From NCBI RefSeq assembly GCF_009914755.1, contig NC_060927.1: 64,000 nucleotides of DNA; one strand, given 5' to 3'. The notes beneath the pieces are model-generated. The model had not been told where the DNA came from. It did no database searches and worked only from the letters and a program-made list of their open reading frames with translations. Origin of the DNA: the human T2T-CHM13v2.0 reference genome, Homo sapiens. The translations under genes and the position numbers were made by a program. Position 1 is the stretch's first letter. Every line of letters starts with the position of its first letter. This document shows positions 21,851 through 60,295 of the stretch, piece by piece.

Positions 21851-22544
21851 CATTGATATAAAAGTTTAATGGAGAACAAAGAGAAGGTATGGTTATCAGA
21901 ACCTAGATGAAGCTGGTTCTAGGAATTTGTAAAGAAATTGGGGGCTGGAACCCAATGCTGCTGCACAGGGCAAGGCCCATTTCTAAGACAGAAAGCAAAA
22001 AGGAAGGAACAAGTTCTACCTTTATCTAGCACCTCCTGTTAGTGAAGCCCAACAGAGACCAAGTTAGCTAAAGGAAGATGCAGTGTGTGGAGTCCTACTC
22101 CCAGCATCAAAAAGAGCATAAGGAGATGAATGTGCAGCAGAGAGATAATGACATAATGACCAACAGAGTCTACCTCTTTAGCTACTGAACACCGATATAC
22201 ACACCCTTTTGTTAATACTTCAACTTCCATATAACAATTACAACTGTATGCTTCCATATAATAAGATCCAACTCTCTGTTCTTCATAAGAACAAAGATGC
22301 TCTCAACCTCTATCAAAATCAGGATACAAAACATCCCCCCGTTATTGTAACCATCTCTGGGTAGTAGTCATAGAACCTACCTCTGGGTGATGTTAATTAT
22401 TTCTCTAATTCTGTCATAGTCCTACCCAATTACTTCATAACCTAAGACCAAATTTTACAGGTAACTACCAATGGCAATCCTCACATAAAATAAAAATGGG
22501 AGGAAGAATGGAGGAATACACACACGCACACACACACAAGCATA

Positions 22545-23415
22545 GCTGCTACAGTCTCAGATGGCTGGGGTTCTTGACCTGATGGGCTGACCCAAACCTT
22601 TGTGCCTAGGTGGTCTGAGTCCTCAGTGGCCCTGATGTGTTTTTGGTTGTTGAAATTTTTCATTAACTTTTACCGTCTTATGCTTCCATATAATAAGATG
22701 CAATTATCCTTCAGAAAAACAAAGATGCACTCAACCTCCATCAAAATCAGGATACAAAACATCCTACCTTTCTGGTATCCATCTCTGGGCAGTAGTCATA
22801 GGACATGGACATAGATATACCAAGAAGCACCCTAGGACATCCTCTGAGTTCCAGGCATAGTGCCCCTTACCATAGTGCTACCATGTGTAGCAATAACCCA
22901 GTTTCCCCTTGGTAATCAGGATCAGTCATCCTAGCCTGTAAAGTAACCCCTTTTTCTGCCTGCTGGCTCAGTAGCACAAGGATCCCCAAATGGCCACATG
23001 GCAGTCCCATCTTCCATTCTAATGGAATCAGTGTTTGTGTCTCCTGGTAGAGTGCCCTCCCTTTGGGGACTAAGACCTCCAAACCAGCAGGGCTCTAAGT
23101 TGGGATGGGAAGCAACATTGCTGATGGATTATTGGCTGTAATAGTGAGAGGAGTCACTCATACTTCTGCCCTTGATTCCCAGACTTCAGTATCTTGGCTA
23201 TGGGGAAAGCAGCATCATATACTCGTTGTTGAGTCAAAGCCTATGCTGGGTGTTTTCTCCCAACTGGAGCTGTGACTGGGTTTTCAGCAGGCCCTTCCAC
23301 TATCCTATCTGGCCTGCTGCTTCTGGGTGATGGGGCATGTGGTAAGACCAGTGAATCCCAAGGGCACAAAGCCTTTGCTATACTTCTTTTGTTGTCAAGT
23401 AAGTTCTTTCTATAG
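22545..23415 (-). mobile_element. ERV-L internal relic: integrase C-terminal part and dUTPase
   Basis: Minus-strand translations GIHWSYHMPHHPEAAGQIG*WKG (ERV-L integrase) and EVLVPKG...IPLEWKMGLPCGHLGILVLLSQQAEKGVT...DPDYQGETGLLLH (ERV-L dUTPase), in the ERV-L order IN then dUT. Confidence 0.85.
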
Positions 23416-26663: not shown

Positions 26664-27030
<367 letters not shown>

Positions 27031-27079
27031 TAGCTCTCGGTGTGAGTTGCTTGTCTAGTCTGTTAAGAGTTCAGGTTAA

Positions 27080-27376
27080 AGCCAGGTGCAGTGGCTCACA
27101 CCTATAATCCCCGCACTTTGGGAGGACGAGGTGGAAGGATCTTTGAGCCCAGGAGTTTGAGACCAGCCTGGGCTACATAGTGAGGCCCCATCTCTACAAA
27201 AAATAATAAAAAATTTAGCCAGGCATGGTGGCACGTGCCTGTAGTCCCCGTTGCTCAGGAGGAGGTGGGAGGATCGTTTGAGCCTGGGAGGTCAAGGCTA
27301 CAGTGAGCCATGATAGTGCCACTGCACTCCAGCCTGGGTGACAGAGTGAACCACTGTCCCAAAAACAAACAAACAA
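27080..27376 (+). mobile_element. AluJ
   Basis: Full dimer with J-type features (tttgagcccaggagtttgagacc; ggtcaaggctacagtgagccatgat). Confidence 0.92.
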
Positions 27377-29238
27377 TAGTTCAAGTTAAGGAATGTCCTT
27401 GATTAGCTCCTGCTTGGGGTTTCAGAGGAATAGCTTACTTTGTCTGAGAAGAGCCTAAAGCAGCCTTCCTTCTATGGCAAAGCCTCCCTTTTACCTTTTT
27501 CTTCTTTTGGGGGCCCCCTCTAAGCTCTCTCTGAGGCAGGCCCTTAAAACTCATCTCTCAGCAAGGCTGGGTGCTGGCACTGGAGACTACATAGAGGTGA
27601 TAAGACAGAGACTCCTAACTCAGTAAGCTCACAGGGAGACCTCCCACCTTGGAAAGACAAGGCCTTCTTTCAGGTTCAGCTCACACTTTCACTGCCAGTG
27701 TGACCTAGGCCTCAGTTTACCCATTTGTTAAATGAGGAGGCTGGCCTACATTAGCCTTCCTCCGGGTGTCAGTCATGTACAGTAGTCCCATATGATGCTC
27801 CAGGGACCATACTTTGGCCAGTAGGTTCGCAAGTCACTGACGCCTGTGGGAGCATCCTGGGAAGCCCACAGGCTGCATTGCACCCAGGTCAAAGCTGGGG
27901 CTGCTCACTCTAGCTGGAACACAGAGCCCTTTACTGCTGAGTGCCTGCAGGCAGCCTTCTGGGAAAAGCCAGCTGTGGATTTCTAAAGGACTTTCCCAGG
28001 CAAAGATGCCTGGGATAAGAGAAAAACAGGATGGTGAAAGCACCATCCCAGGGATGTGAGGGATGGAGCAGCCTCTCTGACCCGAGACCTGTGGTTGCAT
28101 CCCTGCCTACACTGAGCTGCTCCAGCTGCATCAGGCCTGACTTTGCAGGCTGGTGGTTAAGTGGGTAGACGGGTCTGGACGCACAGCCACTTCTGGTCAT
28201 CCACAGCGATGAGCAAGCGGGAGTTTCACTGCGGCTGCCTCTGACACCGTGCTTCATCCCAACCTTTCTCACAGCCTCCCTCAGTGTTTCCAAGATTCCC
28301 TGGGGTGAGTGAGACTCATGGTGAAGCTCAGACTCTACCATGGAGGGCAGGCCTGCCTCACCTGGGGGCCTCCCTGAAGGGGTCACAAGGAGGTCTGAGG
28401 GCAAATACATCTCCTTGGCTGGCTCCTAGAAATGAAAGAGGGGCAGGATGATCAGAGGAGTAGAATTTGACTTCCTGGTCCCTCCCTGTCCTCCCTCAAG
28501 AAAGAGGTGACAAATGAAGCATTCTTGGGGAAGGAGAGAAAGTCCACAGTGACTGAGGTCTGAGGGCAGGGCTGAGACAGTGGTGGTGGAGATGGCGACC
28601 TCAGCCCTCCACACGTGCAGTGTCAGGGCCTCGGAGCCCAGCTGGCAGGCCACAGGAGACAGCGGGAGGTCTGGCTGGAGTGGAGACTGAGTCATCTGGG
28701 ACTGCAGGGTCCAACGGAGTCACGCCTGTGAGTGATGAGCACCTTGACTGAGGCCAACGTCACAGACGTGTCTGGGAAGTGAGTCAGGGACCCGCAGAGT
28801 AGGAGTCTCAACATTCCTGGGAACAGCTTCCTCTGACTGTCCTGCCGTGATATGTTTTCTCCCCTAAGTGGCCTCAAAGGGTTGCTGGCTTTGCCATTGA
28901 CATTTCTACAGCAAAATGAGCTAGTGAGCACTGGAGTTCAAAGGACATGGTGCAACTTTCAAACCAAATTCTCGTGGGATTTCAGAGGCTGATTACCCTC
29001 CCCTCCCTCCCTCCCTCCCTCCTTTCTAGCATGTCGATATTCATCTGTCAAATATTTATCGAGCAGCCACTCCGTGCCAGGTACTGTGGACTGGAGTCAT
29101 GGTGATGGATAAGACACATGCCTGTGCCTTCCTTCCAGTCCCTGTCTTCACACACCCTGTAGTCTGGGGCAGGGGGACACTAAACAATCACACAAATAAT
29201 TGCCTGCAATTTGCTGTGAATGATGAATGCATAGTTCA

Positions 29239-29626
<388 letters not shown>

Positions 29627-30334
29627 AGTCCATGTAAGAGGAGATTGAGAGGGTAGAAAGTTCACCAGGGAGGAGTATTTCAAGTAGAAGAAACAGAAGA
29701 AGCTGAGAGCTTTGGGACATTGACAGACAGCGTGGTTGGTGTGGTCCAGGAGAGGTGAGTAAAGCAAGAGGCAGGATTCAGATCAGGCAGGGCCTGGGAA
29801 GCCACTGTGAGGATTCAGAGCTTTCCCCTGAGAACAATTCTTAGGAAAGGGAGGGTGGAGAACTGGGTCCCCCGAGCCCCAGCAGGGAAGTTATGAGTTT
29901 CTGCTTGTGGAGCATTTGGGCTCTGATCCCCCAACTATCAGCCACAGCCCACACGGTGAAAGCTGGTGAGGCAGGGGAGGCTCAGGACCAGGAAGTCCCA
30001 CGGTGGACCTGGATGGGAAGACACCAGAAGCCAGCGGTGGTGACAGTGGGCAGGTGCTTCAGTTTCCCTTACTGTACAGTGGGTAGAATCAGCCTTGGAT
30101 CAGTGTGTTGAGAGTTTGTGAGGATGGACAAAGTAGCAGCTGGAGGAAAGCCTTGTGCTCTTTTAATGGCTAGCATGGCTCAGAAGGAGACTGCTGACTG
30201 CCTCCCTCCAAGCCAGCAAACCCTGGGATTACAGAAACACAGCAGCCCCTCCAGCATGAGGTGGCAACTTACCGAAGGAAACAGAAATATCCCAAGGAAT
30301 TCAGCAAATAGCCTGCAGATAATTTTATGCAGTA

Positions 30335-30556
30335 GAAGGAGCTTGGGCTTTGGAGCCAGAAAGACTTGAATTTGTTCCCTGGATCTGTCACTAGCTGTGT
30401 GACCTCGGAAAAATCACTCTCTGAGCCTCATTTCCTCATCAATAACAAGAGGACAATTGCAACAATCTGTGCTTATTCAGTTGTTTTAAGGGTTAGAGAT
30501 GGCATTTGTAAAATGTTCAGCACAGCGTGAGGCAATAATAGCTCCTCAATATTTGG
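30335..30556 (+). mobile_element. MIR SINE
   Basis: gggctttggagccaga...actagctgtgtgacctcgg...tctctgagcctcatttcctcatc. Confidence 0.75.
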
Positions 30557-33500
30557 TAGAAGTAGGTAAACATTCAAACCATTAGAGAGGTGGGTTTTCA
30601 CCTGTGCTCAGAACAAGGCGAAAGCTGTCTGCCACCATTGCCCTTTAATAGTCCTTTATCCATTAACCTTCACTGCTAGGAAGTCCTGCCTCATGTCTAA
30701 TCTGCATGCGTCTCTTCACATGGCAGCTGGAACCTACCTGGTCTTGATCTGCCCTAACAAGTGGAGCCTGACAACACCTGTGCATCACCAAAGAAAGGTG
30801 CCAAGCCCTGGTCACCCAGAGGGCCTCTCCCACTAGGTTCTACAGAGAAGCTCACAGAAGACATGGGATGTTGGTCCTACTGAAAAAGCAGGCAAGCTGG
30901 GGGAATACAATCATGTCAGGAATGCAGGCACAGACATCATCTTCTCTCATCACTGTCCACGGTCCGCACACCAAGACCTATCACTTTAGACACAAACCTT
31001 CCCAGGACCAGGACAAGAGAGATGAACTCTAAGGTAAGCAAGGGTCCAGGATGAGACTATGGGGTTTCTGGGTCTGTGAACACGCACACATACATACACG
31101 AATGTGGACACACATAAGAGCACATAACTATGTAAAATACACAGAGAAAGATGTTTAAGGGGACCCCACACCCAGAGATCCCCAGTCACTTGAGGAGATG
31201 GTGAGGTTGTTTAACTTTTTTATACCTCAGGTCTCTTGTCTGTAAGACAGGAATGATAATAACACAGGAACGTCGTAACGATTACATGTTAGGTACTTGG
31301 ACAGTACCTAGCCCAGTGTGGGCTCCCGTTTTTGCTACTATGATTATTATTACAGCTGGACACTCTCTCAGGACACAGAAATCTAGAGATACAGATGCAA
31401 ACACAAATACACCCAGACCCAGCACAATCAAATTCACAGGCATACACATACCCTGAATCTGACCACAGATACAGGTGCTCATCAAAGAGAAGCTGCGTCC
31501 AGCACCCTGCTGGTGGACAGTGTGGCAGAGCTCACATAGTTTGGTCTTGGTCCAATTAGGCTTGGTTCATTTCAGCCAGACCGCAGCAAAGAAAGTGAAA
31601 TTGCTCTGCAAATTCAAATGAGCAGATTTTTGAGATGCCACATGGAGAGATGCCACGGAGAGAGGTAGAGGACCGAACCTAAGTTCAAAGCCTGTTTTTT
31701 AAGGGGTCAGATAGTCACTTTTAGGCTGCTTAATGGCCGGACCTGCGATGTAGCCAGGCCCCACACCACCTAATACACCTTCAGTGAAAAGTGTACTGCC
31801 CTGAGTGCCTGCCATGCAAGAGTCTAGAGATGGTCAAAGAGAGGAGACTGTGTTCCACATATGAGCTAATGCACCATCAGTCATGCTCAGAGTCAAGAGG
31901 CAAGAGATGCAGAATTCAGTGGGATCAGGAAAGTGGAGCAAGCACCGGAAAGCAAAGGGCCTTGAAGTACTCCAGGATTGTCATGAGATGGGGATCAGAG
32001 CTATAAAAATGTCTGGAGGATGCAGAACTATCCTCTGACATCCAACTTTATAACCCAACTTCTGGGTTATAAAAAGAGCAGAAACACGAGCACATATGTT
32101 CAGCCCTCTCTAAAGCATTATACCCACTTGTTAAGGGAGGCTGGAGGGCGAGTCAAGGATGGTGTGGATTTGGCCAGAGAGGGCTTTGTGGAAAGTGGAT
32201 GTGGGTTAGAAAAAAATGCAGTGTTTGCATCTGGTCAACCTGAAAGTGATGAGGGTTATACCTTGGGGGAGGCCCTCTAGGAGATTTCTCTGAAATTCAT
32301 CAAGAGATTTTCTGTGATCCCACACCAATTCTATTTAAGAGGAGGCTGTGAGTGACACTCAGAGAATGAGTAGTTATCATCTTTCCTTCCAGGATGAAGC
32401 TGCCGCATAACTCTGTGATTAACACACACTGACTCTGGACGTCAGGGGAGATTAAAGGAGGGATCAGATGCTTTTGAAGAGAAGGTGGCCATCTGGAAGG
32501 TGCAGGTGCAAGGTGGTGGAGGCTGAAAGGTGGCAGATGGCTTGGTTCTGTGAAGGCAAATTAGGGAACACAGAAGACGACAGATGGGCAGGTGTTGGGT
32601 CATTGTGAAAGGGATTTGCCCAAGTGAAACAAAGATTTTTTTTTCTATTTAAATTTGGGTCAAGCACAAGGATTTCATCACTATTTATTAACTGGCTTTC
32701 AAACTTTGCCTACGAACAAAGTGGAAATCTCTTTATTGCAGATTAATTTGGGAAACAACTCAAGCAATAAAAAGGAGAGGAGAGGCAAGGTTGACCTACC
32801 ATACCTTATTTGCAATTCTAAAAGGTAAAACAGTTCTGAAAATTAAATTAAAAAAAAACGGATTTGACAGCATAACCTGACTTCAACTGACCTCTTTGTC
32901 ATCTTTATTCCATGTAGTGTGAACATTTGATGCAGAAATGTTGATGCGTTTGACTATTGAGTACTGCCCAGACCCCACTAGGGTTTTACGTAATATGGGT
33001 AATATGCTCTATATTATCTTTCTAAAGTCCAAAAAGTTCAAGATTTTGAAACACACCTGGTCCCCAGGGTTTGTTCACAGATCCCACTTACCTCCAAGAC
33101 AAGTGAGAATGTATGCTCAGCAGGCTGCCCGGTGCTGGCCTCAGCATGGGATGCTCAGGTGTGAGCAAGTGGAAAGGGCTTTGAAGAAAGGATACAGCTC
33201 TTTGTATGGGTACATTTGCCAGGGAGGGGAGCAGTGTGTAAATGCTCCACTAGACTGGGGGATGTGAAATTGACAAAGAGGGAGAGAAGCCCTTAGGAAA
33301 GGCATCCTCCTGAGTGAAATGGTAATTCACTTTGAGATGGTGCTAATAATTAAAACATTTTTTATGGCATTTTAAGAAACATCTATTAGGCCCACATGTG
33401 AAGCTACTCACAACTCCTTGTAACATACATTTCAGAAATGTTGCTGTCCCTTGATCTGCCTTTCTTATCTTCATCAGGTGGGTCCCCCATCCCTAGCCCT

Positions 33501-33571
33501 GCTTATGGCCTCCTCAGGAGGGCCAGCGAGGACGATGGCTGAGGTGGGAGGGCAGGGAGCCAGGAGGATCA

Positions 33572-33610
33572 CTATAAATAGAGTCCACCTTCTCCATTCT
33601 TCTCACTGAG
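33572..33610 (+). promoter_or_regulatory. Candidate Pol II core promoter: TATA box overlapping a MEF2 consensus, plus Inr
   Basis: CTATAAATAG at 33572-33581 (TATAAA and YTA(W)4TAR); pyrimidine-rich Inr TCTCACT with A at 33605, 32 nt after the first T of TATA. Confidence 0.55.
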
Positions 33611-33701
33611 CCACTTCTGAGCTTTCCAAAACAACTGCAGCAGCAGCAGCTGCCGCTTCAGCAGCCACAGAAGTGTTGGTGTCACCAGGACACAGCCTCA
33701 G
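33605..33701 (+). ncRNA. Candidate non-coding first exon of an unidentified transcript
   Basis: 97 nt without ATG between the Inr and a consensus donor CAG|GTAAGA (GT at 33702); non-repetitive. Confidence 0.45.
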
Positions 33702-34959
33702 GTAAGAGAAGGGGCATGGCTGCAGAGGGGCAAAGTCTGAGGGGCTGTGTTGGTGCTGAGCTTCAGGGCAGCCTTATGAGAAATACCTACAGAGGTCTCA
33801 TAATAAAAGAGAAAATGTAACAATTTCTTGGAAATTTTTTTTTAAAAAACAGAGCTTCATTCTAAAAGGAAATGTCTCACATGGATCTTATGCAGAGAAG
33901 CCTGAGCGACTTGCACTTTCAACAATGGTTTTGTCATAGATGTAAAGGTAATTTTTTTGATGATTTTTTTGTTAATAGAAGAGCTTAATAGAAGACCTTA
34001 AATGAGGTTCTGGACCAGTGATGCTGAGAGGGCCACCATTTCTACACACTCTCTATGACAGAGGATGCAGGAGCAGAACATGCTAGGGTCTCCTCCTACA
34101 CAGGGCTCATGGAGAGATGCTGATGAGGACAGACTTCTAGGTAGGAGAGGATAAGGTTCTGGGTGGGGAACCTGGAGCCCTCAGGGAACCGGGACAAATG
34201 GGAGGAGTCTCCATAGCCACCTTCTGTCTGATTGCATCAAAGGAAGACTGCTACCGAGTGATGGATGAGCTGGGGTAGGAAGTAGAGCTCTTCATCACTG
34301 GAGGTGTTTAAGCAGAGGCTGGTAACTCCTTGACAGATACACTGAAGAAAGGTTTCATGAATCAGCTGGGGGATTAAAATATTACATTGGTGCAAAGTTA
34401 TTTTCATCAGGAAAGACAGGAGGGAGTGTTTCCAAATCTCAGGGTGGAGGTCGGCAACAAATTACTACTGTCTTTGCAGCCACTGATATGCCCCTCCCCA
34501 AATTTCAGACAGGAAGTCAGTGCAGCTGGTGGTCAAGCATCACATCCCTTAGGCTACTGGGAAGGAGGAGTTGAAGACCTCTGGGCTGATGCTCTCACCT
34601 GGGGTACTTGGAGCAACAAGTAATACTTGGATAACTGTAATGAACTAGAGAAATACTCATTGAGAGCTTCTTAAGAATATTTTAGCCCAGAAAGACAAGG
34701 TGAGCTCACGTTTGACAAAAGGCAAGCTTTCCAGGGGTTGGCTGTTTTTCCCCATGCAAGCAGGACCCCACACCCACTGCATCCCCCTTGCCTGGCTGCT
34801 TCTGGTTTGTAGGTAATGGAATGCAAAAGATGTGGTTTCAGCAAGTATTTCACACCAGGACAGATGTGGAACTACCTAGATAATGTATATCTCCCATTGC
34901 CTGCCTCCGTATCTCTGTCCAGTGGAATTTTCTGCCAAGAGATTGTTGTCCAGTTTCAT

Positions 34960-35103
34960 CTCTGTCAGCCACATGTGGCTATTGGGCAATTGTAATGTAG
35001 CATGAACACATAAATACATTTTAAACTTAATTTAATTTTCATTTATTTAAATTTAAATAGCCACTTGTAGCTAATAGCTATTGTATTGGATAGCGCAGTG
35101 CTG
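34960..35103. mobile_element. MER3/MER33-type hAT-Charlie fragment
   Basis: agccacatgtggcta...tttaaatttaaatagccacttgtagctaatagctattgtattggatagcgcag. Confidence 0.7.
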
Positions 35104-35754
35104 GAACATTCATTCTTTGATAGCAGGAATTGCATTTTTAAAAAGTCTTTGTGTCTCTGGCTTCTTGTATAATGTCCATGAGTAAATATTTAATAAATAA
35201 ACAATGAAAGAAGATGAGGATGTTCTAGGAGGCTTTTGGAGAGGGCATGGTTGAAATCTGAAGGCATAAGGGCTGTTTTTAGTAGATTAACGAAGACTTC
35301 AAATCACCAGAGTGTTGGCTGTTTTGTCTGCAGTTTTGTTCTCCTCAATAATCTAGGACTTTCTTGCCATTTTAACCATAGCTTTATGCATTTTGATAAA
35401 TGTGCACAAATGTAGGTATAGAATATCACCATCAAGATATAGGACATTTTCATACCATGAAAAGTTCACTTGTGTCCACAGTTGGTTTCATGGGTATGCA
35501 CAACCTGTGCAGTCACACAAGGACATGTGCTCAGAAAGGCCCCACGCTTGATTTACTGCTCTGCTGTTGCTGCCTTGAAATTCTTAATAATTTTTTTAAT
35601 AAGGGGCCCTGCAAGTTCATTTTGCATTGTGCCCTGCAAATTCTGTGGCTGGTACTACCTGTATCCTTTTGCGGTCGATCCCCTCCCACCACCCCAGCCT
35701 CAGGCAAGAACTGATCTGCTTTTGTCACTATAGGTTAAATTTGTCTTTTTAAAA

Positions 35755-36065
<311 letters not shown>

Positions 36066-36715
36066 CTTGTCTTTATCAGAGTTTCATGTAAATGGAGTCA
36101 TAAAGTATGTAATTCTTTGTATCTGGTTTCTTTTACTCATAACATTGCTCTTGAGATTCGTCCTTTTTTGTGGTTAGCAATAGTTTGTTCCTTTTTTATT
36201 GTTGAATAGTATTCTATTAAGTGGATACACCATGATGAGTTTATTCATTCATTTGTGATGGACAGTTGGGTTGTTTACATTAGTTGTCTGTTATAAATTA
36301 AGCTGTTACAAGCTTTTGTTTATAAGTCTTTGTGTGGAAAATGTTTTCATTTCTCTTGGGCAAATACCTGGGGATGGAATTGCTGAGAGTAAGATAATAT
36401 ATTTTCAACTTTTCAGAAGCCGCCAAATTATTTTCCAAGGTTTTTGTACCACTTAATATTCCTATCAGCAATGTATGAGAGTTCTAGTTGCTTTACATTT
36501 TTGTCAGCACATTATATTGTCAGTCTTAAATTTTAGCCACGCTAGTGGCTAAGCTGTGTATTTTATTATGGTCTTACTTTGTGTTTTCCTGTGACTGAAG
36601 ATTTTGAGCATCATTTTATGTATCTTCTTTTGTGAGGTCTGGCCTAATCTTTTGCCATTGTTTGTTTTCTTTTTATTGAGTTCTTTATATATTTTGGATA
36701 CAAGTTCTCTGTTAG

Positions 36716-37113
<398 letters not shown>

Positions 37114-37448
37114 AGTCCTGTCATTTTTTTAATAATATCTTTCAAAAATAGACGTATTTTTAACTTTTATGAAATTCAATTTAATGTTTTGTATTTTATG
37201 GTTTGTGCTTTTTGATGTCCTATCTAAGAAATTTTGCCTACCCTAAGGTCACAAAAATGTGCTCTTAAGTTTTTCTCTTAGAAGTTTTATAGTTTGTTTT
37301 TTATCTTTAGGTCTATGATCTATTTTTCATTAAAAAATAATTGATCACATATGTTTGGCTCCATTTCTGGACTCTGTTTCATTGATTTATATGTCTGTCT
37401 TTATGTTAATACCACCTTGTCTTAATAACTATAGAATTATAATAAGTC

Positions 37449-37749
<301 letters not shown>

Positions 37750-38674
37750 TTATAGTAAGTCTTGAAATCAGACAGGGCAAGTATCCCAAAGTTGTTGTTT
37801 ATAAAAATTGTTTTAACCATTCTAGGTGTTTTGCAGCTTTATATAAATTTTAGAATCAACTTGTCAAGATTGCATTACATCTACAGATCAATTTGGGGAG
37901 AACTGATTTTTGATAATATTGTCTTCCAATTCATGTCTATTTATTTAGATCTTTAATTTCTCTCAGCAATGTTTTGTAGTTTTCCGTGCACAAGTAGTAT
38001 ACCTTTTTGTTGTTAAGTTATCCCTAAATATAGAATTTTTTAATGGTATTGAGAATGGTATCATAAAATTTCTTTTCCATTGTTCTTGACATTATGTAGA
38101 CATATATTTGATTTTTGTATGTTGAGCTAGTATTCTATGATCTAAAACTTCTTATTTCTAGTAGCATTTTTGTAGACTCAGGATTTTCTATGTACACAGT
38201 CATGTCACATGAGAATAAAGATAGTTTTACTTCTTATTTTCAAATCTACATGACACTTATTTCTTACTTTTCTCTTTCACTGGCTAGAATCTCCTGTATA
38301 ATGTTGGTTAGAATTGGTAAGAACAGATATTATTGCTTTGTCCGTGATTTTAGATTAGAACTCATTCCATCTTTTACCATTGAGTATAAAGCTAGTTTAG
38401 GTTTGTCATAGATGCCATTCATCAGCTGAGAAAATTCTCTGCTCCTAGTTTGTTGAGAGTTTTTATGGTGAATAGATGTGGAATTTTGTCAAATGGTTTT
38501 GTTTGCATTTTTCATTTGTTTTTTATCTTGAGATGATCATGTAGTTGTTCCCTTTTATTCTGTTAACATGGTGAGTTGTGTTTATGAAGTTTTAAATGTT
38601 GAATAACCTTTGCATTCCTGGGATAAACTCTATTTGTTTACAACATGTTATTCCTTTTAAAAATCTTAAGGCAT

Positions 38675-40238
38675 CTCTCGTGGAGGCAGCTAGCTTGAGG
38701 CTGGGGAGTGCTGAGCTGCGTGTCATGCCCTGTGCTTGCCCAGACTAGTGAACAATGCAGTCAGGATGGCTAAAGGTGACCCCAAGAAACCAAAGGGCAA
38801 GATGTCTGCTTATGCCTTCTTTGTGCAGATGTGCAGAGAAGAACATAAGAAGAAAACCCCAGAGGTCCCTGTCAATTTTGCAGAATTTTCCAGGAAGTGC
38901 CCTGAGAAGCGGAAGATAATGTCTGGGAAAGAGAAGTCTAAATTTGATGAAATGGCAAAGGTGGATAAAGTATGCTATGATTGGGAAATGAAGGATTACG
39001 GACCAGCTAAGGGAGGCATTAGGATCCTTATTCTTGCCTCCCTTAGTTGGTCCCTAATCCTTCGTTTGGATCCCACTGTCTGGATTCTTCCTGCTCTGTT
39101 CCAAATTCTGCCCTAATATCAAATCCACAAACCCTGGTATCTCTATTGGAAATGTCGCAAAAAGGCTGGGTGAGATGTAGATTAACATGTAACAGTGAAA
39201 AGCCACCTTACATCACCAAGGCGACAAAGCTGAAGAAGTATGAGAAAGATGTTGCTGACTAAAAGAAAGTTTGATGGTGCAAAGGGTCCTGCTAAGGTTG
39301 CCTGGAAAAAACGTGGAAGAGGAAGACAAAGATGACGAGTAGGAAAAAGAGGATGAGAAGGATGAATTTTAAAAACTGTTTATCTGTCTCCATGTGAATA
39401 CGTTAGAGTAGGGGAGCACCTTAATTAACACATCAAGTGTCTGTTGCCCTCATTAGGTTTAATTACAAAATTTGATCACGATCAGATTGTAGTCTCTCAA
39501 AGTGCTCTAGAAATTGTCAGTGGTTTACATGAAATGGCCATCGGTGTCCAGAGCACCCTGAAGCTGTATCAAAATTGTATTTATTTCTAAACATTTTTAA
39601 AATGAAAAAATAATCTTGTGTTCTCCTCACTCTGCGCACTTTGCTGTTGGTGTGACAAGGCATTTAAAGATGTTTCTCCCCCGCCCCTTTTTTTTTTTAA
39701 CTTGTAAAGTGGTGTTAACATATAGTTATTGGCTAGAAATCCTGAGTTATCACTGTATATATCTCTAGTTTGTAAAAAGAACAAAACAATTGAGACAAAC
39801 TCTTGACACTCCTTGCTTGGCATTGAGGCTGCAGGGGAAGATGCCTTTTGGAGGGGTCGTAGCTCATGCACTGTGAGGTTGGACCTGGTGACTGCAGCAG
39901 GCATCCATTTAACTTCAGGTTGTCATGTTTTTGTATATAATGACGTAGCATTCTGCCTCCATTCTTAGCTATAGACAAAGGTGGGTCGGCTGGCATGAGA
40001 AGTGTTTTTTTGTTTGTTTGTTTTAGTTAAGTGTGATAGTTTTTAAACTGTTTCTTAAACAAACTGTAGAACTCTTCAGTGTCAGCAAAGGGAAGAGCCA
40101 CTGCATCAATGAAAGTTCAAAAGCCTTCTGTACTTAAACACGCTTTGCAATGTTGTTTTTTTTTTTTGTATGTTTAGAATGCTGAAATGCTTTTGAAGTT
40201 AAATAAACAATATTACAATTTTAAAAATAAAAATAAAA
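38675..40238 (+). pseudogene. HMGB3P13: Processed pseudogene of HMGB3 (5' UTR, intronless CDS from ATG 38766, 3' UTR, A-rich tail)
   Basis: [41 protein letters not shown]...KDYGPAKGG is HMGB3 box A; box B and acidic-tail relics with inversion, frameshifts and a TAG at 39178; aataaa at ~40202 then A-rich tail. The pseudogene number is recalled and less certain than the family call. Confidence 0.93.
38987..39066 (+). ncRNA. MIR4788: microRNA hairpin mir-4788 (mature 5p 38996-39017, UUACGGACCAGCUAAGGGAGGC)
   Basis: 33-bp stem (38986-39018 / 39035-39067; 30 Watson-Crick, 2 G:U, 1 C-C mismatch), 16-nt loop; sequence matches my recollection of hsa-miR-4788. Confidence 0.85.
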
Positions 40239-40644
40239 TTGGTAGACTCTGCTAATATTTTGTTAGAGATTTTTATGTTATGTTCATGAGGGACATTAGT
40301 CTTTAGTTTTCTTTTCTTACAATATCTTGGTCTGGTTTTGGTATCAGGATAATGTTATCTTCGCTAAACAAATTGGGAAATGTTACCTCCTCTATTTTAT
40401 GAAAATATTTACCTGAAATTTGTATTATTTCTTTCTGAAATGTTGTAAGGAATTCATCAGTGATGCCATCTAGACCTGGAGTTTTCTTTGTAGGAAGGGA
40501 TTTATTTACAAATTCAATTTCTTTAATAAGTGTATGGCACTCCAGATTTTTAACTTCTTTTCCAGTTTTGGCAAATCATATTTTTCAAATAATTTGTCTA
40601 TTTTATCTAAGTTGTCAAATTTATTGGCATAAAGTTCTTCATAA

Positions 40645-40975
<331 letters not shown>

Positions 40976-41371
40976 TGTCTTTCATTCTTGATATCAGTTA
41001 TTTGTGTTTTCTCTCTTTTCTTCCTGATCGATCTAGCTAATGGTTTATCAATTTTATTATTATTTTTAAAAACCGTCGAATTAAAAAAATGGATATTCTT
41101 ACTGTTTTTGTCCATTTTCACTGGTTTCCACTCTGATCTTTATTATTTCCTTCTTTCTATTTTGGACTTAATTTGATCTTTATTTTTTAGCTTCTTAAGT
41201 TGGAAGCTTAGATAATTGATTTTAGACATTTTTTCCTTTCTAATATAAGCATTTAAAGCTATTAATTTTTCCCTATGTACTGCTCTAGCTACCTTGCACA
41301 AATGGTATGTTGTGTGTTTATTTTCATCTACTTCAAAATATTTCCTTCATGATTTCTTCTTTGACCTGTAT

Positions 41372-43708
41372 TGTACAGGGAAAAACTCTCTCTCCAACTG
41401 AGTTTCCCTCTGCTCTCACACCACACCACCACAACAATCAACACAGAGGAAGACTTCTTGACCAAATGTGTGGGGGAAAGCCCCACACACCAAGCCACAG
41501 ACACCAGCTGGGTGTCCAATTCAGTTCCAACACAATCTACCTGGAGACAGTGTCAGAGCCCACAGGCTGGGGGCTCAGTTCCCAAGATTGCCCCCGACAT
41601 CTCCCGTTGCAGTCACAAGTCTGGGCCTCCAGAACTTCTGACTGACTGGCTTCAAGTTGGGGTTCCCACTACCCCCTCTTTGGGTTTGATTCATTTCCTG
41701 GAGTGGCTCATAGAACTCAAGGAAACACATTTATTGGTTTATTTTAAAGAACATTACTAAGGATACAAACGAAAAGAAGTGTAGGGCAAGGTATGGGAGA
41801 AGGGGCGTGGAGCTTCCATGCCCTCCCTGGTCACACCACCCTCTAGCAACCTCCACATGATAAGCTATTTGGAACCTCTCTGAACCCTATCCTCTTGGGA
41901 TTCTATGGAGGCTTTATTACATAGACATGATTGATTAAACCACTGGCCATTGGTAATCAGCTTGACCTGCAACTCCTTTCCCCTCCCTGTGGGTTGGGGG
42001 TGTGAGACTGAAAGTCCCAACTCTCTAATCCCGCCTTGGTCTTTCCAGTGACCAGCCCCACCGTTGAATCTATCAGACAAAACACATACACAAAAGACAG
42101 CACTTTGGAGATCCCAAGGATTTTAGGAGTCCTAAGCCAGGAATCAGGGACGAAAACCAAAACATATGTATGCCCTCCATGGAGCCTCCCTTTAATCAAC
42201 TTGGCTTCCATTGCCACCACAGACCACCTGCTGGTTTTGACCACAGATCCCTTACATCAAAAGAATATACAGAATCATTAATAATTAGTCCAGTCCATCA
42301 TATTGTACAAATGTCCTAGGGTGAGGCCACTCAGGTTTGCAGTCTTCCTTTCAATCTTTTCAGGTTCCCAAAACAGGAGTGGTCCCGACAAATATACAGC
42401 TCCACCCTTTCAGGCATACGGAATAATTGAGCTAAGAGACAGTATCATCTGTTGCTCTGAGACTTTTGAGTTGTTCATGTAATATTGAGCTTCCCTCAAT
42501 TAATAACTCATTTATTTATTCATTTACACTCATCTACTATTTCTCCTGCTCTCCATTAATATCCAGATTTTTCACCTTTGGACAGGACATTAGAATTGCC
42601 ACTGTGCTGGTCTAGATTGCAGGCAGCAGCACTAGTCTGGCAAGTGCCTCCCACTCAGCCTGTTCCCATTCACATAGGGTAGGGTTATATAGATTCCAAA
42701 CTAGTGAGCCATTTTCACCACCAGGCATTATAACTGTATTTATCCTTGGTCCCAGTTTTGCCAGAGGGTGAACGCACAAGCCACCTGCATCAGGCCCTTA
42801 GGAATTCTGAGAGGAGAAAAAAAATTTTCTTGAGGTGATTTGGGGAAGAAAAAAAAATTATAGCCATTATACCAATATACTCCTCCCCTAGCAAGAGGTG
42901 CATACTCATATCAGTGTCCTCCCCACCTCCCCTTCCCCAGATCAACCAGAAAAACAGAGAAAAAAATCTAGTGGGGATACTATAGTCCCACTCATGTTGA
43001 GTGTGAGCACAAAATTGTGAAGGTGTGCAAGGCAGCCCTGCAAGCTTTTGTTTCTCCCTGCTTTAGGCAACCAATGTTTCAATTGCCTGTTCTCCTCTAT
43101 CGAACTATTAGTTGAGGGAGGATATCTCTCTGCCCATTGTTGGACATTATGGGCTGTATGTGTTACTTGGTCTGAAGAAATGGCAGTCAGCCATCCAAAT
43201 TTATGCAATATCTTCTGTTCTGTTCTGTTTTTTTTTTTTTTTTTAATTTTTATGGCACTCCGAGCATTTTCATTTCCCACCAGGCATGCAAAAGCCCAGT
43301 CCAGAGTCAGTGTCTATTCTTGTCAAGACCCATTTGCAGCCTCCAGGGCTCCCAGCACCAGCCTCCCTTGCCAGCTGTGTTCAGGGCCTTTTCACCAGGT
43401 TATCTGCCGCATAGCCATCAGCAGTCTCTGTCTCCTTTTATGACAAACAGAACAGTTCTTACTGGCATTATGTGCCTGAGAGGGTGCAAAAGAAACTATC
43501 TTGACTCAACCCATCTCTCCACTGCTGCAGTACCCACTATCCTATATCAATTAATTTCATGGACCCAGGTGGTCACCTCCAGGAAGGACACAGGGATATC
43601 TGCTTGGGCCCTGGCAATCGTACTTGTTTCCATTTAGCAGGTCCAAATAATATTGCTCGACGGACAGGTTTACGTGCTTTCTGTTTTACAGTATGAGGTA
43701 GAGGAAAC

Positions 43709-43753
<45 letters not shown>

Positions 43754-43762
43754 ATAATGCCA
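41372..43762 (-). mobile_element. MER21-type LTR (~41372-42165) plus ERV internal relic with integrase core
   Basis: tgtacagggaaaaactc...caattcagttccaacacaatctacctggag LTR motifs; minus-strand FGWLTAISSDQVTHTAHNVQQWA..YPPSTNSSIEENRQLKHWL integrase-like; L1 resumes after gccaca. Confidence 0.75.
43711..43752. repeat. (TG)n microsatellite
   Basis: Direct inspection. Confidence 0.95.
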
Positions 43763-44093
43763 CACATGGGTTATTAAGAAAACTTTTAAAAATTTCCAAA
43801 TATTTGGGGATTTTATTCCTAAATATCTTCTTGTTCTCGATTTCTAATGTAATTATGAGTGGGCAGAGAATATATAATTCAATCTTTATTTATTGAGACT
43901 TATTTTATGGCCCAGAATATGATCTAGCTTGGCAAATGTTTTATGTGCGCTTGAGAAAAATGTGTGTGCTGCTGTTTTGGGATGGGGTGTTCTATAAATG
44001 TCAGTGAGATCAAGTTGATTGATAATATTGTTCAAATCTTCTACGTACTAGCTGGTTTTCTCTCTACTCATTAATAAGAGAGAAATATTGAAA

Positions 44094-44299
44094 TGTCTAA
44101 ATACATAAATATTTAGATACATAAATTTATGTATCTAAATATGTATTTAGATAAAATTTAGATACATAAATATCTAAATACATATTTAGATAAAGTTTAG
44201 ATACATAAATATCTAAATACATATTTAGATAAAATTTAGATACATAAATACATATTTAGATAAAAATTTAGATACATAAATATCTAAATTATAGATAAA
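44094..44299. repeat. AT-rich minisatellite (~39-bp unit) with a perfect palindrome at its start
   Basis: Unit tttagatacataaatatctaaatacatatttagataaa(g/a) at 44157-44195 and 44196-44234, then partial copies. Confidence 0.9.
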
Positions 44300-44482
44300 G
44301 TATATTTCTCTTGTCAGTTATCTTTTGTTCAATGTATTTTGAAGTTTGTTTTTTAACCCTAGATGTTAAGCATCTAGGATTGTTATGTTCTCTTGGCATA
44401 TTCACCCTTTTATTATTATGAAATGTTCCTTTATATCTTTGGTAATATTCTTTGATCTGAAGTCTACTTCATCTAATATTAA

Positions 44483-44845
<363 letters not shown>

Positions 44846-45494
44846 ATGGTATATCTTTTTCTATAAAATTTTTTTAACTTTAATTTTCCTGTGTCTACAA
44901 TTAAAGTGGGGTTCCTGTAGACAGCATATGTTAATACTTCGGTCTTCTTTAAAATCTGGTTGACTTTTTTTTTTTTAGTGGTTACATAGGATTCACAATA
45001 TATCTTTAACTTATCACACTCTACCCTTAAATAATATAATACCACTTCAGGATATAATACAGAAACTTACAACAATATTATTTAATTCTTCGATCTTTTG
45101 TACTGTTGTTATTATACATTTTATTTCTGTTATAAATCCCACAACATGTTATTATTTTTCTTTGAATAACCAGTTATGTTTTAAATAAATTTTAAAATAA
45201 AAACCTTTCATATTTGCCCACTTATTTATTATTTCTGGTGTTTTTCATTCCTTTGTATAGATCCAAGTTTCCATCAGTATGATTTTTCTTCCAGCTGAAA
45301 AACTTCTATTTATATTTATTAAAAATTTCTGTTTATAGTTAAAAAGTATAAATATAAAGTAAAAGCAATTCTTGTTGTAGAGCAGGTTTGTTGACAATGC
45401 ATTCTCTCAGTTTGTGTTTGTCTGAAAAGATCTTTACTTCATCTTTGGTTTTGAAAGATATTTTTACTTCCTATTGATTTGTTTTCCTTTCAGA

Positions 45495-45731
45495 ATTTTT
45501 TTTTTTCTCTTTTTGAGACAGAGTCTCACTCTGTCACCCAGGCTGGAATGCAGTGGCGTAATCTCGGCTTACTGCAACCTCCTCCTCCCGGGTTCAAGTG
45601 ATTCTTCTGCCTCAGCCTCCTGAGTAGCTGGGACTACAGGCACGTGCCACCATGCCTGGCTAATTTTTGTATCTTTTAGTAGAGACGGGGTTTCACCATA
45701 TTGACCAAGCTGGTCTCAAACTCCTGACCTC
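45495..45731 (-). mobile_element. 5'-truncated AluS
   Basis: Ends at ctcctgacctc; TSD-like tttcagaatttt on both sides. Confidence 0.9.
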
Positions 45732-47534
45732 ATTTCTTTCAGAATTTTTAAAGTGTCATTCCACTGTCTTCTGGCTTGCACTTTTTTCTAATGATAAATC
45801 ATGGAAATTCTCATTTTGTTTTTTATGTGTTATTTGTCTTTTAAAAATCTGTCTGCTTTTACGATTTTCTCCTTATCCTTGGTTTTCAGCAATATGCTGT
45901 CATGTAGTTTTATTTGTGCATACCTTTCTTGGGATTAAGTGAGTTTACTAAATCTGTGGTTTTAGAAATGTTTTCAAATTTGGAAGAATTTCAGGTATTA
46001 TTTCATCAAGTATTTTTCTGGCCTTTACTTCTTCACACATATGTTCAACTACTTGATATGTTTCCATAGTTAATAGGCTCTGTTAATTTATTTTAGTCTT
46101 TTTTTTCTTTTGCATGTATCATTTTGGAGGGTTTTTATTGTTATGTCTTCAAATTCACTTGCCTTTTCTTCTGCAGTGTTTAATTAGCTGGTAATTTCAT
46201 CCAATAAAGTTTTAATTTAATACCTCTTTTTTTATCCGTATAGTTTTTATTTGTTCTTTTTTATAGCTCTCATTTCTTTTCGCATTATGTCTGTTTACAT
46301 GAGCATATTTGTAATAGTTGTTTTAATATCCTTTTTTGTTAACTCCAAAGTCTCTGTCATTCTGGGTATGTTTTTATTGACTGATGTTTCCCCTAAGTAT
46401 GGGTCACATTTTCCTGCATTTTTGTATGTCTAGTAATTTTTACTGGATGCTAGGCATTGTCACAGTTACCTTTTTGAGTGGATGACTTCTGTTTCTTGTA
46501 AAGAATATTAAATTTTTATTGTGGCATGCACTTAGGGAACTTAGAATCAGCTCATTTTTTTCAAAGTTTGTGTTAAATTTTTCTAAGGCAGGTCTAGAGT
46601 AGCCTTTATTTTAGGTCTCTTTTATTTAGTTTTACTACCAAGTTACAACTCTTCTAGGATCTGCACTGAGTTCACTGGGTGTTAAATGAGATCTCTTCCC
46701 TCTGGCTGGATCTCTACTATCTCATAGCCTGTGTAAGCTCTAGGAACTGTTCAGCATACAGATTCTCAGTACTTCTTTGCATAGCTTTGTGGAGTTTTAA
46801 CCTAAGCATTCAGAGCTTAGTTTTCAGCAATAGATTCAAGGAGACCCCTATGCAGATTCTAGGCTCGTTCTCTGCATAGTTCTCTCTGTTCCAGTGCTCT
46901 GCCCCATAAATTCCAGCTGATTTAGCCTCCCTTAACCCTGATCTCTGCTTGCTTAACTTGGCAAGACTGCAGTGTTATGCTTGTGTTCCTTCCCCTGCAC
47001 CACTGTCTGGAAAAGTGACTCTTGGCAGAAAGCCAGGGAAACTGTAGGGCTTGCTTGTTTGTTTCATGACTCTTGTTGATCATAGTTCTGCACTTCTTGT
47101 TGTCTAGGATTTGGAAATAGCTGTTTCATAAATTTGTCCAACTTTCTTATTGTTTTCAGTGGTAGGACAACTCTGGTAGCAGTTACTCTGTCATAACTAT
47201 AAGATAGAGATGAGCTTTTAAAAAGACCACATTCACAGCAGTGGTGACTATAAGCTTTTTTTCATACAGCCTCACATGAAGGAGCTTTGGGAACTGAAAA
47301 GGACTATGGAGAATCAGAGATCTTGAGATTTGACAGTGGTAGCAGAAGTCCAAGATGCCAGGGAAGATAGCTTAGCAGAAAATCTGACAGCCAGGCTAGA
47401 ACAATCAGGATTTCTGATGTGTAGGCTTGGAATAGAATAGATTTCAGTACTTTCTATCTAAAAATTATTTGCCTCTTATTGAAGCAGAGGACCCAATATG
47501 AGATAGACAAGGGACTCTTCTTCTGATAATTGGA

Positions 47535-47704
47535 TTGCAACCTTGGCTACATACTTAAATCATTGAGGGAGCTTTTACAAATCCTGGTTCTTAAGTTGTA
47601 CTGAAAAAAATAAATCAGTCTGTGGGATGAGTCTAGGCATGTGTATCTTTTAAAGCTCCTTGGGTAATTTCAGTGTGCTGCCAAAGCTGGGGACCACTGC
47701 TCTA
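47535..47704. mobile_element. MER5A-type hAT-Charlie element
   Basis: aaccttggctacatac...atcttttaaagctccttgggtaatttcagtgtgctgccaaagctggggaccactgctcta. Confidence 0.75.
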
Positions 47705-50700: not shown

Positions 50701-50799
50701 TGCTCTGTTGTGCCTATGCCTTTATCTCACCCCTACTGTACCCCCTGGAGCCAAAGGCTGTGCTTATAGAGACACTCACCTTGGTTATCAATCATGGAA

Positions 50800-51325
50800 T
50801 GGAACACTGGGAGTGAGCACACCCGCATAAGCCTGCCATGTTGGCAGCCAGTGGAAGGTGCCACTCAGTTCTCCCTCCGAGGGAACCTTGTGATGAGAGT
50901 GTAGTGAGCTGATGGCCACCAGCTGCGGCACCTTCAGGGTCTGTTGCTGTGTTTGAGCAGAGGCCACACTCTCCTGGGCAGCAATGGCCAATGACTGTGC
51001 ACAGCAGAGGCACTAGGGCCTTGACAATTTCTGTGCAATGCAGGATTTCTCTAATGAGTGATCTTGGTTCTAGAGCTCCCTCTTGGGCTGGCTGAGATTT
51101 TCCGGGGGCTGTACTGCTCTGAGGCTCTCCGTACCCACACACACCTCTTTCCTTCCCCATCTCCTTTTGCAAGGATCAGGACTGCATTGCAGTTTGAAGG
51201 CTCTTTCTGCCTCCTCCTGCTCCTTCTTCCCTTTCAATCTTCACAGTCATTTCCCCTAATAAATCTCTTTGCATTTCTAACTCCATCCTGCCATCTGCTT
51301 CCCGGAGGACCTGAATTGACCCAAC
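50800..51325 (+). mobile_element. ERVL-class LTR, old
   Basis: 3' end cccctaataaatctctttgca...tctgcttcccggaggacctgaattgac typical of the LTR16/33/41 group; left boundary uncertain. Confidence 0.55.
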
Positions 51326-52512
51326 TTGTGAGGCAGTCTGTGTTAGAAGAGCCATGTGTGGCTTTTCAATTGCTGGCAGAGAGGGAAAGAGTGGTTTGAG
51401 GGTAGGGTGGATCAGCAGTGGCCCGTCCAGAGCCACTTCCCTGTAAGAGCACTGCTTGAGCAGGAAGTGAAATGGGGCAAAGTGTAATGGGGCCCCTTGC
51501 TTGCTATATTCCCCTAGGTCTGCCCCCTTTTCTGTAAAGAATATAGACAGCCTGGGATCAAGTCTGGTGCTCATCTGCTCCTTTGGCCGTTATTCACCCC
51601 CAAGCTCCACTGCTTTTACAGGATCTTGCAACAGGTGGAGTGCAACTGGGAAGACACTGGCAGTGAGGCCCTGTTTTCATTTGGCTGAATTTCCTACACT
51701 GAATTCATATCTGTTGCTACTTATTTGTGCAAATATCTTGTCAATGTCTATCTTCACCCTCAGAATATAAGCCCCATGATTAGGGGAACCCTGACTGTCC
51801 TATTCAGAGTTGATTCCCTAGAACCAAAATGTTGTCTAAAACATAACAGGTACTCAAAAATATTGCTTGATGAATAAATGAGTGGGTGAATGCAGGGTAG
51901 ACCATATTCTTATTCTTCCAGCAGCTTTAAAAACAAACCAAGAATTATATTTTGGTTTGTCCCAACAGTTGGGATGCTGATTATCCCAACAGTTGAGTAT
52001 TCTAGCCAAAAAATATATGTCCCACATATATTTTTGTAAATGTAATGGGCACATTCCCTGTGGTTCCTGTTTTAGAGCTGTCATCTTGTCTTCAAGATCA
52101 TTTTCTTTTTTCCCCATGTGAAACCTGTTTCCACATCCCCTGCACCCAGACTTCCCCCAGGAGGCTAAAGCCAGCCCTATCTGTGTTGGGTAACTTATTT
52201 AGGGTGTCTGAGATTACTCCTAACTCCAGGAAAGCCTGTGAGATGACATTCCAAAGAGCACTCCCCCACTGTCTTCTTTCATATAAATAATTACAGGCTC
52301 TTCTTCCCAAGGTTCTGAAAAAACTTCCCCATGGGCCAGAGTCCCTTGGAAAGTGGTCCAAGCCCACTGTCAGTGAGGTACAGTCACACATAAAAACCGT
52401 CCTCTGTCACTTTTTACACGCATGGGGCAAGCCCACAAGTAACCATTTGTCAATACTGAGAAGAAAAACAATGGTCAAGCTCAAGAGTTAAGTCCATTCA
52501 AGACTTGCTGGG

Positions 52513-52892
52513 TGATATGGTTTAGGTTTATGTACCCACCCAAATCTCATGTTGAATTGTAATCCCCAGTGTTGGAGGAGGGACCTGGTAGGAGGTGTTT
52601 GGATCATGGGGCGGATTTCCCCCTTGCTGTTCTTATTACAGTGAGTGAGTTCTCACGAGATCTCATTGTTTGAAAGTGTGTAGCACTTCCCACTTCACTC
52701 TGTCTCTTTTGCCAGCCATGTGAAGATGTGCTGGCTTCCCTTTTGCCTTCGGCCATGATTGTAAGTTTCCTGAGGCCTCCCCAGAAGCAGAAGCCTGTAC
52801 AGCCCACAGAACCTTAAGCCAATTAAACTTTTCTTTATAAATTACCTGGTCTCAGGTATGTCTTTATAGTAGTGCAAGAAGGCACCAACACA
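52513..52892 (+). mobile_element. MST/THE1-type MaLR solo LTR
   Basis: tgatatggttt...caccaacaca; perfect TSD CTGGG at 52508-52512 and 52893-52897. Confidence 0.92.
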
Positions 52893-53281
52893 CTGGGCTT
52901 TCACAGAGTGGGGGAGGGAGGACTTTTCTACTCTTATGTCTTCACCAAGGAACAAAACAGAAACTGTTTGCTGAAAAGGCAGTAAGCTGGGATGGTTATT
53001 GCTGAGCCATGGCTCCTTTGAAAAATAGGGTTAGTTGGCTCATGTGGAATGTATTATATGTGCTCACAGAGGGGGCTGGGCTCTGGATAAAGTCCTGTGT
53101 TTCCTTCCCACCTGGTTACCTCAGGACACTGAGACAACTAAAGGGCAAGTTACCAGACCAGGGATGAGTCCTTTCAGCAAAAGAGTCTCTCTATCTGAGT
53201 CTCACTCACTTGTGTACTCTGTCTGTCTTCCAGAAAACATTATATAGAAGGAAAGTTCTCCAAGATCAAGGCAGGAAATAG

Positions 53282-60255: not shown

Positions 60256-60295
<40 letters not shown>

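What the first reader, a model, noticed from the sequence alone, without database searches (positions are those of the whole stretch)
33460..33710. Unannotated-looking TATA/MEF2 promoter and first exon: a possible host gene for the retrocopy-borne miRNA
Seen, in non-repetitive DNA: CTATAAATAG (33572-33581), which is both a TATA box and a perfect MEF2 consensus. An Inr follows at 33605, then a 97-nt ATG-free exon with E-boxes CAACTG (33632) and CAGCTG (33647), and a strong donor CAG|GTAAGA at 33701/33702. Upstream are a GATA site (TTATCT ~33465) and E-box CAGGTG (33475). Known: overlapping TATA/MEF2 sites with E-boxes characterise muscle-lineage promoters. Inference: a tissue-specific Pol II transcript starts here. 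Its first intron would contain the HMGB3 retrocopy and mir-4788 in sense orientation 5.3 kb downstream, explaining how a promoterless retrocopy hairpin could be expressed.
Basis: partly seen in the sequence, partly recalled or inferred. Interest (0 to 1): 0.7.

Follow-up and report, generated by a model that had tools for sequence, protein, structure and literature searches.

The report
Catalogued TATA promoter upstream of miR-4788
This is a real transcription start site with a TATA box, already listed in a public promoter atlas as the promoter of the primate microRNA miR-4788; it likely makes the RNA that carries that microRNA, while the proposed muscle-specific control remains untested.

Summary
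The predicted start, window 33605, maps to hg38 chr3:134,432,445. That exact base is the TSS of FANTOM5 CAGE peak p@chr3:134151281..134151311,+, which the FANTOM5 miRNA promoter table assigns to hsa-mir-4788 through transcript XR_108490 (PMC7397866 Table S12a). So the promoter is real and the host-gene idea is already in print, although current RefSeq has no gene here. The muscle/MEF2 part is not supported by anything I could test. The 10-mer occurs 9,644 times in the genome, no more than its reversed control, and it also heads a chemokine gene. The upstream 'GATA + E-box' doubles as a strong 3' splice site, and two E-boxes sit in a CAG-rich run. Caveats on hosting: no junction or read-through data were seen; an older CAGE method lists other starts; miR-4788 is not in MirGeneDB; its 22-mer has an exact copy on chr16 and near-copies in other HMGB3 sequences. 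Verdict: correct call, already known, modest interest.

The parts
33572..33581 (+). CTATAAATAG: TATA box (about -32 to -25), also a perfect MEF2 consensus; MEF2 binding untested
   Evidence: TATA score 11.6 with a recalled matrix, 3rd in window
33600..33629 (+). FANTOM5 CAGE peak p@chr3:134151281..134151311,+; representative TSS is the initiator A at 33605
   Evidence: PMC7397866 Table S12a row; mapped by distance to mir-4788, assuming no net indel between builds
33605..33701 (+). likely non-coding first exon, 97 nt, no ATG, contains a CAG-rich run with CAACTG and CAGCTG
   Evidence: 5' end from CAGE; 3' end inferred from the donor
33699..33707 (+). strong 5' splice site CAG|GTAAGA; use not shown
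   Evidence: 8th best donor in window
33543..33565 (+). G-rich proximal tract with a GGGAGGG SP/KLF-like word; the 100 nt upstream of TATA are 66% GC and CpG-poor
   Evidence: score 11.9; 2nd best acceptor+donor pair in window
33802..33807 (+). AATAAA 100 nt into the putative intron, followed by a T-rich stretch; possible early end of the RNA
34480..34699 (+). best nearby candidate second exon (acceptors 34480 or 34509, donor AAG|GTGAGC); longest ORF 28 aa; unproven
38665..40228 (+). HMGB3P13 retrocopy, sense to the promoter; extends beyond the RefSeq span to its own AATAAA (40202); TTTTAAAAAT at both ends (38655-64, 40219-28)
38987..39066 (+). mir-4788 hairpin, 5,382 nt downstream of the TSS; the 3' arm is an inverted copy absent from 4 of 4 other HMGB3 retrocopies aligned
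   Evidence: (-66.2 kcal/mol, z -8.6)

Best explanation
This is a CpG-poor TATA-box promoter with a CAGE-mapped start at 33605 that likely drives a low-level or cell-restricted non-coding RNA running 5.4 kb into the HMGB3P13 retrocopy, which would make it the primary transcript of miR-4788. Shown: the motifs; a CAGE peak whose TSS is the initiator A 32 nt from the TATA; the FANTOM5 assignment to mir-4788 via XR_108490; a stable hairpin in sense orientation. Inferred from general Pol II biology: TBP/TFIID binds the TATA box and fixes the start; U1 snRNP at the +97 donor defines a short first exon and would suppress the AATAAA at +198 so that polymerase reaches the retrocopy; Microprocessor would crop the hairpin from the intron, or from a last exon ending at the retrocopy's AATAAA (40202). 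The activating factors and the tissue are unknown; MEF2 is one candidate only. Odds by step: real TATA-driven start about 0.93; transcript reaches the hairpin about 0.7; muscle-lineage MEF2 control about 0.25.
For: Base-exact match of the predicted Inr with the FANTOM5 TSS, hg19 134151287 / hg38 134432445; same TSS in the Bru-seq paper's table, taken from the FANTOM5 file (not independent). FANTOM5 human pri-miRNA promoters were chosen from annotated transcripts and manually curated (passages). TATA-Inr spacing of 32 nt and top-ranked TATA and donor. GC-rich flanks unlike most genome look-alikes. Hairpin and retrocopy are sense to the promoter.
Against: No gene model here in RefSeq RS_2025_08 (hub annotation), so XR_108490 is no longer annotated; its exon structure was not seen (0 main-text hits). 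No Bru-seq transcription unit over MIR4788 in the 2 of 13 stored rows seen. The GRO-seq pri-miRNA supplement has no miR-4788 entry. PROmiRNA (33 FANTOM4 libraries) lists three other starts, about 37082, 8309 and 7719, and not this one. An AATAAA at 33802 and four more A(A/T)TAAA words lie before the hairpin. miR-4788 is not in MirGeneDB and its 22-mer is not unique.
Confidence: 0.68

Rival explanations
1. The start site is real but makes a short or unstable RNA (ending at AATAAA 33802, or an enhancer-type RNA in the AMOTL2 regulatory landscape). miR-4788 reads come from other starts or from HMGB3-derived fragments.
For: AATAAA plus T-rich tract at +198; no current RefSeq model; alternative CAGE starts; exact copy of the 22-mer on chr16 and 7 one-mismatch copies, one in the spliced chrX gene; a CRISPRi guide for an AMOTL2 enhancer maps in this window at 62181-62199.
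Against: The curated FANTOM5 table ties this peak to mir-4788 through an annotated transcript; a strong donor lies upstream of the AATAAA; the hairpin is very stable and has UG at -14.
Confidence: 0.18
2. 33478-33701 is an internal exon of a longer lncRNA that starts in the CpG-rich region at about 7.7-8.3 kb. The CAGE peak is an alternative start inside that exon or, less likely, a recapped fragment.
For: Strong acceptor with branch-point-like word at 33451-33477; + strand CAGE starts at about 7719 and 8309 and a donor at 8511.
Against: The CAGE TSS falls on an initiator exactly at TATA distance, which recapping would not favour; 17 acceptors this strong occur on the + strand of the window; no junction seen. 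This can coexist with the best explanation.
Confidence: 0.08
3. It is the surviving promoter and first exon of a lost small protein-coding gene, or a decayed LTR promoter (TATA, then AATAAA about 200 nt later).
For: TATA plus short non-coding exon 1 is the usual anatomy of tissue-specific genes (recalled); TATA-to-AATAAA spacing resembles an LTR (recalled).
Against: No Pfam family in six frames of 27001-39002 and 46501-60002 except the HMG box; no PDB match below E 0.37 in three + frames of 33400-35801; a cattle gene list shows nothing between ANAPC13 and AMOTL2 (passage); no other genomic copy (vs control).
Confidence: 0.06

Closest known systems
FANTOM5 pri-miR-4788 promoter p@chr3:134151281..134151311,+ (XR_108490); PMC7397866 Table S12a, from the De Rie et al. 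2017 curation
   Same: Same strand, same base (hg38 chr3:134,432,445) and the same assignment as host promoter of mir-4788.
   Different: The table gives no motifs, exon structure or tissue. The TATA/MEF2 anatomy, the donor, the upstream acceptor and the early AATAAA are described here from sequence.
Retro-miRs, novel class (miR-4788 in HMGB3P13); PMC10486083
   Same: Same miRNA and retrocopy; reported as a de novo hairpin conserved from human to marmoset (passages).
   Different: That study looked for a TSS only within 4 kb, so this start at 5.4 kb lies outside its search.
Muscle promoters with overlapping MEF2/TATA sites (for example MRF4 and Xenopus MyoDa; recalled, not read here)
   Same: A TATA box that is also CTA(A/T)4TAG, with E-box words nearby.
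   Different: No evidence here of MEF2 or MyoD binding, muscle expression or conservation; the E-box and GATA words have mundane alternative readings.
Chemokine promoter on chr2 (locus L008/L039; the name CCL20 is recalled)
   Same: Identical CTATAAATAG, initiator about 29 nt away, short first exon with a strong donor.
   Different: Its exon 1 is coding and the gene has a Pfam IL8 domain. It shows that the 10-mer is not diagnostic of muscle.

Membership tests
TATA-box Pol II core promoter | TATAWAWR about 28-34 nt upstream of the start | tested here: met
   first T at 33573, A+1 at 33605
TATA-box Pol II core promoter | capped 5' ends mapped at the initiator | tested here: met
   published FANTOM5 TSS maps to 33605; tag counts not seen
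TATA-box Pol II core promoter | TBP binding, or loss of activity on TATA mutation | not testable with these tools
   no ChIP or reporter data reachable
MEF2/TATA muscle-lineage promoter | MEF2 consensus overlapping the TATA box | tested here: met
   CTATAAATAG fits CTAWWWWTAG
MEF2/TATA muscle-lineage promoter | myogenic E-boxes beyond chance | tested here: inconclusive
   3 in 250 bp vs 0.47 expected, but two lie in a CAG-rich run and one is an acceptor-like CAG|GTG
MEF2/TATA muscle-lineage promoter | muscle-restricted activity and MEF2/MRF occupancy | not testable with these tools
   no tissue-resolved data; none of the 40 papers listed holds 'miR-4788' (uninformative search)
MEF2/TATA muscle-lineage promoter | conservation across mammals | not testable with these tools
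   no related genomes held
pri-miRNA host promoter | same strand and upstream of the hairpin, with a linking annotated transcript | tested here: met
   5,382 nt upstream, XR_108490; the model is absent from current RefSeq
pri-miRNA host promoter | continuous nascent transcription from TSS to hairpin | tested here: inconclusive
   no Bru-seq unit in 2 of 13 stored rows seen; no entry in the GRO-seq supplement
pri-miRNA host promoter | miRNA falls when the promoter is silenced | not testable with these tools
   needs CRISPRi
High-confidence miRNA | stable hairpin | tested here: met
High-confidence miRNA | listed in MirGeneDB; mature sequence maps uniquely | tested here: not met
   in_mirgenedb NO; exact second locus on chr16
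LTR-derived promoter | similarity to other genomic copies | tested here: inconclusive
   self-match only vs 3 weak hits for the control; no repeat library on hand
Unitary pseudogene of a protein-coding gene | downstream exon remnants similar to known proteins | tested here: not met
   39003-46500 and 60003-64000 were not scanned

The most novel reading that the evidence does not exclude
An older, tissue-restricted MEF2/TATA promoter (muscle or neural) drives a spliced lncRNA that RefSeq has dropped. A primate HMGB3 retrocopy landed in it, a local inverted duplication made a hairpin, and miR-4788 thereby inherited MEF2-dependent expression: a fully traceable birth of a miRNA by promoter capture.
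Probability: 0.2. Interest if true: 0.45.

Novelty: already known. Interest (0 to 1): 0.25.

Why it matters
It gives the exact promoter to silence or assay for miR-4788, a primate retrocopy-born miRNA with recent functional claims (PMC13352759, PMC12465550; the passages I searched there say nothing on its promoter). It lies just beyond the 4-kb limit used by the retro-miR study. It also shows that a sequence-only reading recovered a CAGE start to the base. The start and its link to miR-4788 are already in the FANTOM5 atlas, so the gain is anatomical detail and a testable MEF2 hypothesis, not a discovery.

Tried and rejected
Lost PTH4 gene: rejected, it belongs on human chr6 (passages of PMC5640766). 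Lost protein gene: Pfam and PDB scans negative; synteny searches found nothing. Repeat or LTR origin: no copies; no notable local repeats. Structured RNA at the site: Rfam finds only mir-4788 in the window. Coordinate search of main texts: the 22 papers listed looked unrelated by title, none opened. XR_108490 in main texts: 0. Tissue of activity: miR-4788 passages give only broad normal-tissue expression, lower levels in trophoblast than iPSC vesicles and detection in orangutan brain/liver libraries; none points to muscle. De Rie 2017 and the Pth4 paper were not held. PMC7820843 had no readable supplement. The PRO-cap atlas supplements were listed only, as small tables, and not opened. Earlier scan findings were not available.

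Full report
Observation. All motifs are present at the stated places: CTATAAATAG 33572-33581, initiator A 33605, a 97-nt ATG-free stretch to the donor CAG|GTAAGA at 33701/33702, TTATCT 33465, CAGGTG 33475, CAACTG 33632 and CAGCTG 33647. The region is CpG-poor. It matches only itself in the genome, while an old LTR-like control stretch found 3 further weak hits; the tool warns that no match does not prove rarity.

Chance. One by one the words are ordinary. The MEF2 consensus has 3 window matches vs 1.34 expected, the donor pattern 11 vs 11.8, and the 10-mer 9,644 genome-wide vs 9,838 for the reversed control. With weight matrices recalled from memory the TATA ranks 3rd and the donor 8th on both strands. 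TATA+Inr+donor arises in 1 of 100 block shuffles at the observed (post hoc) thresholds and in 12 of 100 at rounder thresholds that the site itself just misses; at loose thresholds the window has 4 hits vs a mean of 2.1. Genome-wide the composite pattern has 42 matches vs 24 for the reversed control. Among the 30 of 42 fetched, this site has the most GC-rich flanks. Sequence alone thus made a promoter plausible, not certain.

Decisive evidence. mir-4788 starts at hg38 134,437,827 (supplement row of PMC10486083) and hg19 134,156,669, so window 33605 corresponds to hg38 134,432,445 / hg19 134,151,287 if there is no net indel between builds (computed before the look-up). Table S12a of PMC7397866 (one supplement row seen) lists TSS hg19 134151287, hg38 134432445, + strand, promoter p@chr3:134151281..134151311,+, primary transcript XR_108490, intergenic, pre-miRNA hsa-mir-4788. 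The paper says the human promoters are the previously curated set of De Rie et al. 2017 (passages). PMC6824518 describes that set as the highest-expressed CAGE peak among candidates defined by GENCODE or Entrez transcripts, manually curated (passages), and repeats the TSS as 134432444, 5 kb from the miRNA (same source, not independent). I did not see tag counts, the tissue profile or the exons of XR_108490; De Rie 2017 was not held.

Against or limiting. Current RefSeq shows no gene here (hub annotation). In PMC6824518 Table S2 the 2 rows seen, of 13 in a file cut when stored, call no Bru-seq unit over MIR4788 and mark it absent from MirGeneDB. The supplement of PMC5737680 has no miR-4788 entry. 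PROmiRNA (PMC4053815; 33 FANTOM4 libraries, passages) lists three other candidate starts, mapping to about 37082, 8309 and 7719, and not this one. An AATAAA with a T-rich tract lies at 33802, and four more A(A/T)TAAA words precede the hairpin. The mature 22-mer has an exact copy on chr16, 7 one-mismatch and 11 two-mismatch matches, mostly at loci that also match the retrocopy and one in the spliced chrX gene. The broad expression reported for miR-4788 (passages) may therefore partly be mis-assigned reads (inference).

The muscle claim. Nothing tested supports it. The same 10-mer, with initiator and donor, heads a chemokine gene on chr2 (Pfam IL8; the name CCL20 is recalled). The two exonic E-boxes lie in a CAG-rich run. 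Three E-box words in 250 bp exceed the window mean of 0.47, but given these overlaps that is weak. miR-4788 passages mention broad expression, iPSC vesicles and orangutan brain/liver libraries. That MEF2/TATA overlaps occur in muscle promoters is recalled; one search gave a listing only.

The hairpin and its host. Rfam finds mir-4788 at 38987-39066 and nothing else in the window; it folds at -66.2 kcal/mol, z -8.6. Against 4 of 4 other HMGB3 retrocopies aligned, this copy carries about 20 extra bases that form an inverted copy of the 5' arm, in line with the de novo class in PMC10486083. The retrocopy runs to about 40228 with its own AATAAA and a 10-nt repeat at both ends. By eye it sits in antisense L1-like DNA (recalled similarity). 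It is sense to the promoter and has acceptor-like sites at 38744-38894, so the hairpin could be intronic or in a last exon.

Mechanism. Shown: TATA, initiator, CAGE start, sense hairpin, database link. Inferred: TFIID positions Pol II at 33605; U1 at the +97 donor defines exon 1 and would protect against the +198 AATAAA; elongation over 5.4 kb reaches the retrocopy; Microprocessor would release miR-4788. Confidence 0.68. Rivals: a short or enhancer-type RNA unrelated to the miRNA (0.18), in a window that holds a CRISPRi-tested AMOTL2 enhancer (passages of PMC11601770; one of its two guides maps at 62181-62199, the other is not in the window); an internal exon of a longer lncRNA (0.08); a relic of a lost gene or LTR (0.06), for which Pfam, PDB, synteny searches and the PTH4 idea gave nothing.

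Verdict. Observation confirmed. Promoter and host assignment correct but already catalogued. Muscle/MEF2 control open, about 1 in 4. Novelty: already known. Interest 0.25.

Noticed in passing
window 62181-62199: One CRISPRi guide against the rs9876658 coronary-disease enhancer that regulates AMOTL2 in smooth muscle cells (PMC11601770) maps here; the second guide is not in the window.
   Followed up: partly
window 7000-9000: CpG-rich stretch (observed/expected 0.44-0.59) with RefSeq enhancers; PROmiRNA lists + strand CAGE starts at about 7719 and 8309, and a donor lies at 8511: a possible upstream lncRNA start.
   Followed up: partly
window 38665-40228: HMGB3P13 extends about 580 nt beyond its RefSeq end, to the parental-type AATAAA, with a 10-nt flanking repeat; the miRNA hairpin comes from a local inverted duplication.
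   Followed up: yes
G000:C16:63398571-63398592: Exact second genomic copy of the mature miR-4788 22-mer in another HMGB3 retrocopy; a source of ambiguous small-RNA mapping.
   Followed up: partly
window 48476-48491 and 48660-48815: A 16-nt exon-like stretch ending ATG|GTGAGT followed by a strong acceptor opening a 52-codon frame; no Pfam match; probably chance.
   Followed up: partly
window 55417-55522: CTG-rich short ORF that reads like a signal peptide on the + strand; likely a simple-repeat artefact.
   Followed up: no
window 28362-28425 (- strand): Highest-scoring acceptor+donor pair of the window, inside the RefSeq enhancer 28067-29266.
   Followed up: no
window about 36000-47200: Long T-rich stretch that looks like an antisense L1 with an LTR-like insert near 41380-43700 (by eye, recalled similarity); mostly unmasked in the supplied repeat list, so that list understates repeats.
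   Followed up: no
window 22040-22380 and 22690-22810: A locally duplicated stretch of about 120 nt seen by eye.
   Followed up: no
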